Shown here one piece after another: positions 1-62,128 of a DNA stretch of 64,000 nt. Position numbers and translations under genes: made by a program. Origin of the DNA: Octopus vulgaris (taxonomy: Eukaryota). A model generated the notes under the pieces. That model ran no database searches. It saw only the letters and a list, made by a program, of their open reading frames with translations, and had not been told where the DNA came from. Numbering within the stretch: position 1 is the first letter of the stretch; every line of letters begins with the position of its first letter. The stretch covers positions 83,939,318 through 84,003,317 of the forward strand of contig OX597831.1 of assembly GCA_951406725.2 (NCBI GenBank), written 5' to 3'.

Positions 1-44
1 GGAGAGAAAAAAATGCGTGTAGGAGCTAACGATCTATCATGGCG

Positions 45-113
45 TTACACACACATTATATACACATGCACATATACATACACACACACGTACATACATA
101 TGTGTGTGTGTTT

Positions 114-154
<41 letters not shown>

Positions 155-170
155 ATTTATGTATATATAA

Positions 171-216
<46 letters not shown>

Positions 217-392
217 GTTTGAATGTATGTATGTTTGTATATATGTATGTATGTATACTGTTGTGTCTGTGGAGAGTCATTCTCTTTTGGTGCCTTATAC
301 ATAAATATATATATGTGTGTGTGTGTGTGTGTATGTATATATGTATGTGTGTGTAGATGTATGTGTGTGTATGTATATATATTTATATATAT
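45..392. repeat. Compound (CA)n/(TG)n/(TA)n microsatellite
   Basis: Dinucleotide tracts are directly visible; the ORFs here are low-complexity artefacts. Confidence 0.95.
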
Positions 393-21657: not shown

Positions 21658-22595
<938 letters not shown>

Positions 22596-57880: not shown

Positions 57881-58304
57881 ATGAATGTATTTGAGCATGT
57901 ATGTATTTGCATGTGTGTATGTACGAAGGGTTACTCAAAAGAAACTGGAATTTTGCAATATTATTTTATTCGCTTAGTTTTATGTTTACACTTTTATCGT
58001 CTTCAAAGTATTCTCCATTTAAAGAAATGCATTGGTCCAGGCGCACTTTACACTTTTCGAAACAGTGCTGGAATTCTTGCGAAGCAATGCTTTTTAACGC
58101 CTCCGTTGCTTTTTTTTTTTTTTTACTTCGTCCACGTCTGCAAATCGTTTACCGTTAAGGACGTTTTTTTATTTGGATGAACAAAAAGAAGTCTCAGGGA
58201 CGAAGATCGAGTGAATGAATAGAGAGGGTGCGTACGCGCGGTCATGCCATTATTGATCAAAAACTAGAATAAATCAATCAATCAATCAATCATATACATA
58301 CATA

Positions 58305-58347
<43 letters not shown>

Positions 58348-58349
58348 AT

Positions 58350-58972
58350 AGTAGAAATATTAAAATTACTAAGCCTCTCTAAAAGAGATCGCGGCAGCGT
58401 TCCTGGAAAATAATAGTTATCGCCATACTAATATGGCATTCTTATAAAAATAAGAATAAAGCTGTCCGCTTATTAGCTCCATGAGGCCATCGCCTTAAGT
58501 TAGCTATTTGATACACAAACTGTATCCATATAACCTTCGAACAAGGGAGGTCAGTCGCTCCACACTACTTGACCGACAGCTACAGACGCGTTTCGGGGTA
58601 TTGCCCCCTTTTCAATGTAGCGTAGTCAGACCAGTAGGTGTCGCTTCTGACAATCTCTGTTCGAAGGTTTTATTTACCTAGTTTCAGTGGAATACATCCA
58701 CTTGTTTTCAATAATAGAAATATTAAAATTACTAAGTCTCTCTAAAAGAGATCGCGGCAGCGTTCCTGGAAAATAATAGTTATCGCCATACTAATATGTA
58801 GCTGTCGGTCAAGTAGTGTGGAGCGACTGACCTCCCTTGTTCGAAGGTCATATGGATACAGTTTGTGTATCAAATAGCTAACTTAAGGCGATGGCCTCAT
58901 GGAGCTAATAAGCGGACAGCTTCATTCTTATTTTTATAAGAATGCCATATCAGTATGGCGATAACTATTATT
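58350..58972. mobile_element. Hammerhead repeat family R2, second locus (1.25 minus units plus an inverted partial unit)
   Basis: atagttatcgccatac occurs at 58414 and 58777 (363-nt period). The plus-strand partial copy starts at 58797. Confidence 0.8.
58579..58621 (-). ncRNA. Minimal type-I hammerhead ribozyme motif (U3-A8 variant)
   Basis: Minus strand reads GCTACA-TTGAAAA-GGGGG(CAATA)CCCC-GAAA-CGCG-TC/TGTAGC with a perfect 6-bp stem I. Confidence 0.78.
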
Positions 58973-59502
58973 TATATAAACATACTTATATATATACGTA
59001 CATATATATATACATATATATATACAAATATATACATATATATATACATATATATACATATATATATACTTATATATACATATATATATACATACATATA
59101 TATACATTCTTATATATATATCACATATATATACATACACACACACACATATATATACATACACACACACACACATATATATACATACACGCACACATAT
59201 ATATATATATATATATACATACACACACACATATATACATACACACACACATATATATACATACACACACACAAACACACATATATATATACATACACAC
59301 ACATATATATATATACATACACACACACATACATATATACATACACACACACACATACATATATACATACACACACACACACATATATATATACATACAC
59401 ACATACATATATACATACATACATACACACACACATATATATATACATACACAGACACACACACACACATATATATATACATACACACACACACATATAT
59501 AT

Positions 59503-59541
<39 letters not shown>

Positions 59542-59543
<2 letters not shown>

Positions 59544-59688
59544 CTAGGGTCATAATTATGGGTGACAATTTCATATGACACCGCTAGAAAAAACTGCCGT
59601 TCAAACCGAAAACTGTGGATCTCTTCGGTTTGAACGGCAGTTTTTCTAGCGGTGTCATATGAAATTGTCACCCATAATTATGACCTAG

Positions 59689-59690
<2 letters not shown>
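59542..59690. repeat. Near-perfect hairpin (~68-bp arms, 13-nt loop) at the centre of a larger inverted microsatellite duplication
   Basis: ggtcataattatgggtgacaatttcatatgacaccgctagaaaaaactgccgttcaaaccgaa, then the loop aactgtggatctc, then the reverse complement. Confidence 0.9.
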
Positions 59691-59737
<47 letters not shown>

Positions 59738-59903
59738 ATATATATGTGTGTGTGTGTATGTATATATATGTGTGTGTGTGTATGTATGTATGTATATATG
59801 TATGTGTGTATGTATATATATGTGTGTGTGTGTGTGTGTATATATATGTGTGTGTGTGTATGTATGTGTGTGTGTGTGTATGTATATATAAGTGTGTTTG
59901 TGT

Positions 59904-59951
<48 letters not shown>

Positions 59952-60026
59952 GTGTGTGTATGTATATATATATATGTGTGTGTGTGTATATATATGTGTG
60001 TATGTATATATATATGTGTGTGTGTG

Positions 60027-60073
<47 letters not shown>

Positions 60074-60290
60074 ATATATATGTGATATATATATATAAGT
60101 ATGTATATATATGTATTTATATATATATGTATATATAAGTATATATATATGTATATATATGTATATATATATGTATTTATATATATATATGTATATATAA
60201 GTATATATATATGTATATATATGTATATATATATGTATATATATGTATATATATATGTATATATATATATGTACATATATATATAAGTAT

Positions 60291-60345
<55 letters not shown>

Positions 60346-60359
60346 TATGTATGTATATA

Positions 60360-60387
<28 letters not shown>

Positions 60388-60390
<3 letters not shown>

Positions 60391-62128
60391 CTAGTTTCAG
60401 CTCATGAGCTGTGGCCATGCTGGGGCACCGCCATTTGGTGTTGATACTTGGTTTTACTTCACTAAAGCTTTTTAGCAACTGCCATTTGGTGCATGAGAGA
60501 GTTCGATGCAGCTGCCCTCATCTGCACCTCCTGCTGTGAAGTTGGTTCATCTGGGACACCTGACAGGAAGAGATCCAGTTTCATTTTAAAGACATCTGCA
60601 TCCACCCCATGCAGGTCTCTCAGGTTCTTCGGGAGGATATTGAAGAGCTGTGGGCCTCGGAAGCCCAGGCTATCACAGTATCTTGTCCTACATCTTGATG
60701 GCAAATTTGGAGTCCTAGGCACCACGCAGTGGCGCCCAGTTCTGGCATTCGTGTAACTCTCGATGCCAAAGTTTGGGACACGTCCCTCCAGGATCTTCCA
60801 GATGTATATTATGGCATATCTTTCCCGCCTACGCTCCAAGGAATATAGTTTTAATCTCTTGAGTCTTTCCCAGTAGCTTACATTCTGCATAGAGGCAATC
60901 TTCTTCGTGTAGCTACGCTGGATCGCCTCGAGCTCTGTGATCAACTTGACACTGGATGGTGACCATAACTGAGAGCAATAGTCAAAGTGGCTTAGGACAA
61001 GAGTCCTCCAGAGGAACATCATGGTTTCTTGTTCTCTTGTTCTAAAGGTTCTGAGAATCCATCCGGCCAGTCGTCTACATTTCATTGCCAATTTAGCAAC
61101 ATGTACATGAAAGGTTGCGTCATCACTCATGTAAATACCCAGGTCACGCACTGATTGTGCCTCTGGGATTGCTATTCCTCCGGGTCCAGTGTATTCATTG
61201 GGTATTGCATTTAGTTTTGCATGCTGATAGTATAAAGCTTGAAACTTTTCAGCATTGAACTGCATGCTATTCTTTTCAGCCCACTTGTATATTTTGTCCA
61301 GCTCACATTGCAGGCGTTTAGTGTCCTCAGGGTTCTGTATTGCCTGTGAAACTTTTGTATCATCTGCATAACTTGTGATCGTGGATCTCCGCGTGGCTGA
61401 GGGCAGGTCTGAGAGGGCCATTATGAACAGTAGTGGTCCCAGAACAGTGCCCTGCGGAACACCGCTCACTATTTGCGTGTTAATGGGAGTGGCTACTACC
61501 ACCTGACTTCTATCTATCAGAAAGTCATGAAGCCATACTCCCAGTTTTCCAACTATGTTGAGATCACGCAGTTTGTGACATATCATTCCATGATCGACTT
61601 TATCAAAGGCCTTTGCAAAGTCGAGATATATCACTTCCACATTTGAGTGGTTGAGCAGCCGTTTCAGCACCCAGTCATAGTGTTGTAGGAGCTGAGTTAA
61701 ACAGCTTCTCCCTGGTCGGAAACCATGTTGGGTGTCGGGCAGCAAGTCATTTTCTTCAAGGAAGGTGATCAGTTTCCTTCTGAATATTCGTTCCATGACC
61801 TTGCTGATGTGTGAGGTCAGAGAGATAGGTCTGTAGTTCTTGGCCTCCGCTCTGCTACCTCATTTATGAATGGACCTTCCTTCAGTTTTCTTGGAAGTTT
61901 GCCAGCTGCAAGGAAGCTCTGAAAGAGGAACTGCAGTGGTCTTGCTAGGAATCTCTTACATGCTTTTAGGAGGATTGCCGGGAATCCATCGGGACCAGTA
62001 GCTGAGTCTGTTTTCATTTCATCTATAGCCTTTATTACATAGTCTTCCTTTATATCGATGTAATCTATCGTCGCAGCCTCTGATTTTATATCTGCAGTGG
62101 TAAAGAAGTCAGTTGGATTGGTGATTTG
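60388..62128 (-). mobile_element. 5'-truncated CR1-like LINE related to LINE A
   Basis: 444-aa RT ORF (YLDFAKAFDKV, GVPQGTVLGPLLF, YADD, LYSLERRRER), an upstream TGPDG fragment, a 3' stem-loop tail and (AATC)n. Confidence 0.92.

What the first reader, a model, noticed from the sequence alone, without database searches (positions are those of the whole stretch)
58791..58972. Inversion junction begins exactly at the predicted ribozyme cleavage site (family R2)
Seen: the plus-strand partial copy starts TGTAGCTGTCGG at 58797, the first base after the predicted GUC cut. It joins the opposite-orientation copy through a 2-nt TG microhomology. Inference: this is a genomic fossil of an RNA whose 5' end was made by self-cleavage and then reverse transcribed with a template switch. 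It is independent support that the variant ribozyme is or was active.
Basis: partly seen in the sequence, partly recalled or inferred. Interest (0 to 1): 0.75.

Follow-up and report, generated by a model that had tools for sequence, protein, structure and literature searches.

The report
Retrozyme inversion starting at ribozyme cut
A back-to-back insertion of a small jumping repeat does start exactly at the repeat's predicted self-cutting site, but genome-wide only about 1 in 100 repeat units start there and other spots are used more often, so this junction is likely not proof of cutting, although a small pile-up of ends at the site hints that cut RNA is sometimes copied.

Summary
Observation confirmed. 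The plus arm (58797-58973) starts at the first base after the GUC of a type I hammerhead motif (U3-A8 core) and overlaps the inverted arm by TG. The insert has a 12-bp target duplication and a paralogous empty site: a Penelope-type inverted insertion of a 363-nt non-LTR retrozyme, likely twin-primed. Of 1484 units, 14 detectably start at +1 (about 1.3% corrected). Among inversion junctions +1 has 8 (window excluded) against a local mean of 4.4 (P 0.08-0.14); +9 and +12 have 11 each. Positions 39, 42 and 44, with no cut site, are used about 1.8 times as often. The other arm of this insertion reads through an intact cut site. So this junction is not independent proof of activity and needs no template switch. 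A weak family-level signal remains: 13 of 25 single-arm ends counted between -6 and +17 lie at +1/+3 (6 versus 0 at a matched TA site), which fits a few percent of cut templates. The scan had already noted twin-primed retrozymes and the Tx1 side finding elsewhere in this genome.

The parts
58339..58350 (+). Left copy of the 12-bp target-site duplication; its last 3 nt are shared with the end of the minus arm
   Evidence: the same 12-mer stands at 58973-58984
58348..58798 (-). Arm A, 451 nt: retrozyme positions 150-363 then 1-237 (long 3' end class); reads through an intact predicted cleavage site
58579..58621 (-). Type I hammerhead motif: 6-bp stem I, core with U3-A8 in place of C3-G8, 4-5 bp stem II, GAAA, short palindromic stem III; predicted cut between 58585 and 58584
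   Evidence: U3-A8 variant described in PMC4209133; no Rfam hammerhead hit
58797..58798 (.). Head-to-head junction with 2-nt TG microhomology between arm A position 150 and arm B position +1
58797..58973 (+). Arm B, 177 nt: retrozyme positions 1-177 (short 3' end class); starts at the first base after the predicted cut and holds no complete hammerhead; three private T>C changes
58973..58984 (+). Right copy of the 12-bp target-site duplication
60288..60299 (-). Paralogous empty site: an inverted duplicate of the flanking microsatellite region with one copy of the 12-mer and no retrozyme
   Evidence: 58268-58350 matches 60299-60381 inverted at 95%
21756..22530 (.). Second inverted insertion of the same family in the window; its 5' ends are at positions 177 and 144, not at the cut site

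Best explanation
The 58339-58984 insert is a head-to-head pair of 5'-truncated copies of a 363-nt hammerhead-motif repeat inside a 12-bp target duplication, likely made when a Penelope-type enzyme primed two cDNAs, one from each cut DNA strand, that were then joined by a 2-nt microhomology, and its start at the predicted cut base is likely an ordinary truncation point rather than a record of self-cleavage. Shown: anatomy, duplication, empty site, two fixed 3' ends near 175 and 237, shared alleles between arms, boundary counts. Inferred: Penelope enzyme, twin priming on one circular or multimeric RNA, and stops that favour the AT-rich side of GC-rich or hairpin segments (the hammerhead core is one such segment, lying just 5' of +1). 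A minority of the family's insertions, at most about 3% of passes through the site, may come from cut RNA; this locus cannot be assigned to them.
For: Duplication and empty site. 63 of 84 inversion pairs have one short (167-179) and one long (228-240) end, 1 has two short, 0 two long, and 20 have at least one other end. Arms share subfamily alleles at 679 of 696 site comparisons (97.6%) versus 67.9% between loci. Two adjacent internal RT starts and cleavage plus extension of both strands are shown for a Penelope protein (PMC11167929). 1484 units hold +4..+22; 33 detectably start at +1..+3, 14 at +1. Inversion ends: +1 = 8 without the window, neighbours mean 4.4, +9 and +12 = 11, +15 = 8; 23 ends lie at -6..0, upstream of the cut, where cut RNA cannot end. 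Positions 39, 40, 42 and 44 have 12, 9, 12 and 13 of the first 100 of 256 rows, about 1.2-1.7% of 1957 units each versus 0.9% at +1. End density tracks a GC-upstream/AT-downstream contrast (Spearman 0.25, P 2e-6). One +1 junction (L028) is simply a join through the 6-nt stem I complement.
Against: +1..+3 holds 32 ends against 14.6 expected from neighbouring positions (overdispersed P 0.008), the highest 3-nt sum between -6 and +17. Single-arm ends: 13 of 25 in that range lie at +1 or +3; at +18, which also starts with TAG, 0 were found against 6 equally detectable at +3 (P 0.03). 19 of 20 inversion arms starting at +1..+3 are shorter than one unit versus 60 of 90 neighbours (P 0.012, post hoc), and both arms stay short of the site in 9 of 20 versus 20 of 90. 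Taken at face value up to 45% of +1 inversion ends are excess. The autonomous Penelope partner was not identified.
Confidence: 0.68

Rival explanations
1. Arm B ran off the 5'-OH end of an RNA cut at this hammerhead. The template would be a partly cut multimer (cut at the first site, intact at the second), so arm A, primed in the second unit, read through the intact site and met arm B. This keeps the reader's cleavage idea but replaces the template switch by cDNA-cDNA joining.
For: Exact +1 start. 8 versus 4.4 at +1 among inversions, 32 versus 14.6 at +1..+3 overall. Single-arm pile-up with a negative TA control. L161 has arms starting at +1 and +2 with about 44 nt of filler between. Linear and multimeric retrozyme RNAs exist in other animals (PMC7229834 passages). 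R2 5' junctions track ribozyme cleavage (PMC3774820 abstract).
Against: The excess at +1 among inversions is not significant; ends at -1 to -3 are nearly as frequent per base (5, 7, 4); stronger peaks lie where there is no cut site. For Anolis Poseidon, hammerhead mutants did not change insertion in vitro and no RNA-seq reads began or ended at the cut (PMC11167929). 9 of 13 single-arm ends at +1/+3 follow at least one full read-through of the site.
Confidence: 0.27
2. The inversion arose by self-priming or fold-back of one strand, or by a later DNA rearrangement, not by two primed cDNAs.
For: Self-priming on an antisense template was proposed for head-to-head Penelope junctions (PMC3846280 passage). 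Some family junctions are centred on palindromes (L074, L184, L218). Here arm B lies wholly within the span of arm A.
Against: In many loci neither arm contains the other (for example L008). Arm ends pair as one short plus one long (63 of 84). The 12-bp duplication brackets the whole structure as one event.
Confidence: 0.05

Closest known systems
Animal non-LTR retrozymes (Cervera and de la Pena 2020, PMC7229834, passages read; Li, Clavereau and Pollet 2026, bioRxiv 10.64898/2026.07.22.740005, part 1 of 5 read)
   Same: Non-coding tandem units of a few hundred bases, one type I hammerhead per unit, strongly self-paired fold (z -8.0), proposed Penelope origin.
   Different: U3-A8 core. Expression, cleavage and circles are not shown here. 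In the passages read I saw no map of 5' boundaries of genomic copies.
Endonuclease-positive Penelope-like elements with inverted pLTR and tail (PMC8557442 and PMC3846280, passages; PMC11167929, parts 1-2 of 4)
   Same: Partial tandems, head-to-head inverted 5'-truncated copy, one end longer than the other, short target duplication, AT-rich or microsatellite targets, microhomology at 5' joints.
   Different: No ORF; the two ends differ by about 60 nt rather than 30-40; the enzyme-donor element was not identified.
PLE minimal hammerheads including the U3-A8 variant of Schistosoma Cercyon elements (PMC4209133, parts 1-2 of 4)
   Same: U3-A8 covariation, short palindromic helix III, predicted dimeric activity.
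   Different: Helix I 6 bp and helix II 4-5 bp as in canonical metazoan motifs; it sits in a tandem retrozyme, not beside an RT ORF.
R2 retrotransposon HDV-like ribozyme and its 5' junctions (PMC3774820, abstract only)
   Same: The idea that genomic 5' junctions can record where a ribozyme cut the template.
   Different: In R2 the cut defines the element's normal 5' end; here at least about 97% of passes through +1..+3 read on.

Membership tests
Type I hammerhead ribozyme | Conserved core (3-9 box, GAAA, NUH) around three helices, helix I open | tested here: met
   core present with U3-A8; position 7 is the one common polymorphism in the 3-9 box (88 A, 50 C of 138). Core numbering is recalled and matches the figure legends of PMC4209133.
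Type I hammerhead ribozyme | Match to a curated Rfam hammerhead model | tested here: not met
   No hit at gathering score in the window, and none at E up to 10 in 58300-59000.
Type I hammerhead ribozyme | Self-cleavage after GUC | not testable with these tools
   Only indirect genomic counts; no raw RNA reads were available.
Non-LTR retrozyme | Tandem non-coding units, each with a type I hammerhead | tested here: met
   363-nt units in arrays of up to 5 or more. No ATG ORF of 30 aa or more lies inside the unit; the 4 listed lie mostly in the flanking microsatellite.
Non-LTR retrozyme | Highly self-paired monomer fold | tested here: met
   -127.6 kcal/mol, z -8.0, 0 of 100 shuffles as stable.
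Non-LTR retrozyme | Expression as linear and circular RNA | not testable with these tools
   No holder on record as RNA; contigs only.
Penelope-mobilised insertion | Inverted 5'-truncated copy, tail on one end, target duplication in AT-rich DNA | tested here: met
   182 of 228 arms in inversions; 63 of 84 pairs short plus long; 12-bp duplication with empty site.
Penelope-mobilised insertion | Shared pLTR with an autonomous RT plus GIY-YIG element | not tested
   No search for the autonomous partner was run; the only long ORFs found inside arrays belong to a Tx1-like LINE.
Ribozyme-defined 5' junction (R2-like) | 5' boundaries of genomic copies concentrate at the cleavage site | tested here: inconclusive
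   No dominant peak (about 1.3% of units at +1; higher peaks at 39-44); mild excess at +1..+3, mainly single-arm ends.

The most novel reading that the evidence does not exclude
A few percent of this retrozyme's insertions are copied from hammerhead-cut linear RNA, and the single-arm 5' ends at +1/+3 are a genomic read-out of germ-line cleavage by a U3-A8 Penelope-type hammerhead. Boundary maps could then measure in vivo cleavage for any Penelope or retrozyme family, and the stronger pile-up at 37-45 may mark a second processed RNA end.
Probability: 0.35. Interest if true: 0.52.

Novelty: new member of a known kind. Interest (0 to 1): 0.27.

Why it matters
Whether Penelope and retrozyme hammerheads cut in vivo, and whether cut, circular or uncut RNA is the template, is open: PMC4209133 reports low activity in vitro, and PMC11167929 found cleavage dispensable in vitro and no reads ending at the site. 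This family shows that nearly all reverse transcription passes through the site, which favours circular or uncut templates, and it puts an upper bound of about 3% on cut templates. The single junction is ordinary; the census method and the weak single-arm signal are what is worth keeping.

Tried and rejected
1) Template jumps at the cut as the source of tandem arrays: read-through junctions are mostly exact. The 19 deviations listed are mainly CpG-type or point changes; only a few are small indels near the site (L018, L031, L065, L097). Not supported. 2) Conservation as proof of ribozyme function: the family is too young, nearly every position is about 97% conserved, so no test was possible; I did not run a covariation count. 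3) Pure TA microhomology with microsatellite flanks as the full cause of the +3 single-arm ends: the +18 control gave 0 single-arm ends among 18 rows, so it is insufficient alone; numbers are small. 4) Partner arms confined to a linear monomer: 9 of 20 versus 28 of 90, P 0.30; not shown. 5) Collision of the long arm with the short arm's start: the 5' end profiles of the two arm classes look alike; not supported. 6) RNA evidence: no RNA holder listed; four contig runs were laid and cannot show ends. 7) Rfam: no hammerhead hit. 8) Look-up of earlier findings by sequence and by words returned nothing. 10) Literature searches showed no paper mapping Penelope or retrozyme 5' boundaries to the hammerhead cut; this covers only the held library, listings and passages, and no supplements were read.

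Full report
1. Observation. The window is the last 64 kb of contig C18 of a 2.8-Gb genome. The minus strand at 58348-58798 holds 451 nt of a 363-nt tandem unit; the plus strand at 58797-58973 holds 177 nt of the same unit. A type I hammerhead motif lies at 58621-58579 on the minus strand with a predicted cut between 58585 and 58584. With the first base after the cut as +1, the plus arm is +1..177 and the minus arm is 150..363 followed by 1..237. They overlap by TG at 58797-58798.

2. The element. The hammerhead has a 6-bp stem I, a U3-A8 core, a 4-5 bp stem II and a short palindromic stem III that can pair between two copies. The U3-A8 variant and the dimer model are described for Penelope hammerheads (PMC4209133, parts 1-2 of 4 read). 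Rfam gave no hammerhead hit. The unit folds far better than shuffles (z -8.0, 0 of 100) and holds no ATG ORF of 30 aa. 1484 genomic units carry positions +4..+22 intact. This fits an animal non-LTR retrozyme (PMC7229834, passages; bioRxiv 2026.07.22.740005, part 1 of 5).

3. How the insertion was made. A 12-bp duplication (58339-58350 and 58973-58984) brackets both arms, and an inverted duplicate of the flank carries the empty site at 60288-60299, so this is one event. In a sample of 228 arms from 127 loci, 182 arms sit in head-to-head inversions. That sample is not random: it joins 30 loci from the best BLAST hits (40 of 2392 candidates scored), the loci of the 100 exact matches to one 20-mer and C1 loci, and it requires an intact unit start. 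Of 84 clean pairs, 63 have one short (167-179) and one long (228-240) 3' end, 1 has two short, none two long, and 20 have another end. The two arms share subfamily alleles at 679 of 696 comparisons versus 67.9% between loci. A Penelope protein cleaves and extends both strands and starts at two nearby internal sites (PMC11167929, parts 1-2 of 4); inverted copies and tails are standard for the group (PMC8557442, PMC3846280, passages). Inference: two cDNAs from one RNA source converge and anneal by microhomology. A 2-nt overlap is the mode (17 of 91). No template switch is needed.

4. Pattern searches return whole counts, and every exact match in 30 earlier loci was re-found. I required a wrong base upstream of an intact anchor to list all boundaries in a tile. 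Tile -6..+4 gave 67 rows and tile +5..+17 gave 94 rows; all were fetched and classified. Rows with identical context were collapsed to 65 and 90. Read-through SNP or indel rows were dropped (3 and 15 by script, 2 more by hand); L161 was moved to inversions and L139 and L151 to -6 by hand. A boundary is seen only if the tested base differs, about 70% by base composition (estimate). Inversion ends per position, window excluded, from -6 to +17: 3, 0, 3, 4, 7, 5, 1, then 8 at +1, 4, 7, 2, 0, 5, 2, 4, 11, 5, 4, 11, 5, 1, 8, 5, 4. The mean of the other 23 positions is 4.4; P for 8 or more is 0.078 (Poisson) or 0.14 (overdispersed). 23 ends lie upstream of the cut. All types together, 14 of 1484 units start at +1 (0.9%; about 1.3% corrected) and 33 at +1..+3 (2.2%; about 3.2%). 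A third tile, 35..50, gave 256 rows among 1957 units. I read the first 100 by eye (30 checked by script) and dropped 27 as read-through or ambiguous: 12 at 39, 9 at 40, 12 at 42 and 13 at 44, or about 1.6, 1.2, 1.6 and 1.7% of passes. In the locus sample +1 had 2 of 214 BLAST-called ends (two more, L015 and L047, were called 1-3 nt upstream), and +1..+3 ranked 15th of 361 overlapping 3-nt windows; the top windows were 38-44. End density follows a GC-upstream/AT-downstream contrast (Spearman 0.25, P 2e-6), and +1 has that context. So +1 is not the family's peak, and about 97% or more of passes read through.

5. What favours some cleavage. +1..+3 holds 32 ends versus 14.6 expected from neighbours (overdispersed P 0.008). 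That control is biased low, because the second tile misses (TA)n flanks at odd positions. The excess is mainly single-arm ends joined to flank: 5 at +1 and 8 at +3 of 25 in the range. At +18, which starts with the same TAG, 0 single-arm and 2 inversion ends were found in 18 rows, against 6 equally detectable single-arm ends at +3 (P 0.03). In the locus sample 2 of 30 single-arm ends were at +1..+3 and 7 of 30 at 39-45. Inversion arms starting at +1..+3 are shorter than one unit in 19 of 20 versus 60 of 90 neighbours (P 0.012, post hoc). Against: 9 of 13 single-arm ends first read through the site at least once, partners cross the site in 11 of 20 including this locus, and one +1 junction is a join through stem I (L028). 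These are small counts with several comparisons.

6. Verdict. The locus is an ordinary Penelope-type inverted retrozyme insertion. Its +1 start has about a 1 in 4 chance of recording cleavage, requiring a partly cut multimer, and it is not independent proof of activity. The family gives weak evidence for a few percent of cut templates, a much smaller effect than in R2, where cleavage sets the 5' junction (PMC3774820, abstract only). No RNA evidence could be obtained, the autonomous partner was not sought, and no supplements were read. My reading was formed before the look-ups of earlier notes, which agree on twin priming and on the Tx1 target; they are leads, not support.

Noticed in passing
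L079:2254-7614; L285-L312: A Tx1-like LINE (ORF1 515 aa with zf-CCHC; ORF2 1140 aa with APE, RT, zf-RVT; about 5.4 kb) sits at one site of this retrozyme, unit position 301-316, with a 16-bp duplication in L079. 21 of 28 exact 3'-end matches are followed by that site, three of them as tandem LINE copies; 7 more diverged relatives (84-97%) sit elsewhere, one before a U1-snRNA-like start (U1 recalled, not tested).. Already noted many times by this scan.
   Followed up: partly
Unit positions 37-45 (window 58833-58841 on the plus arm): The strongest pile-up of 5' ends in the family, rich in single-arm ends (9 of the first 30 rows; 7 of 30 in the locus sample). It lies at the edge of the longest helix of the predicted fold. 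RT stop or second RNA 5' end; unexplained.
   Followed up: partly
window 58849, 58923, 58951: All three differences of the plus arm from the minus arm are T>C in element sense (A>G on the other strand) and rare in the family (3 of 197, 1 of 220, 1 of 239). Chance, RT error or editing of a hairpin RNA; not resolved.
   Followed up: no
window about 58260-60400: The retrozyme sits in the left arm of a larger fold-back of microsatellite DNA centred near 59617; the centre 59548-59685 has 45-nt and 22-nt perfect inverted arms.
   Followed up: partly
window about 25600-57600: Cluster of GC-rich LTR-retrotransposon-like copies (gag-, protease-, RT- and integrase-like ORFs by eye, mostly broken) in direct and inverted arrays with 3-kb and 5-kb spacing.
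   Followed up: no
L150, L174, L185; G000:C6:700165: Internal deletions that remove part of the hammerhead core or join the cut region to position 42.
   Followed up: no
L161:1228-1683: Both arms start at +1/+2 with about 44 nt of filler between them: the best single candidate for two cDNAs running off a cut end.
   Followed up: partly
L014, L094, L279; L069, L104; L077, L156, L165, L187: The same junction pairs (39/48, 263/44, 107/3) recur in separate loci, some with the short and long ends swapped, showing microhomology hot spots set by the unit's own inverted repeats.
   Followed up: partly
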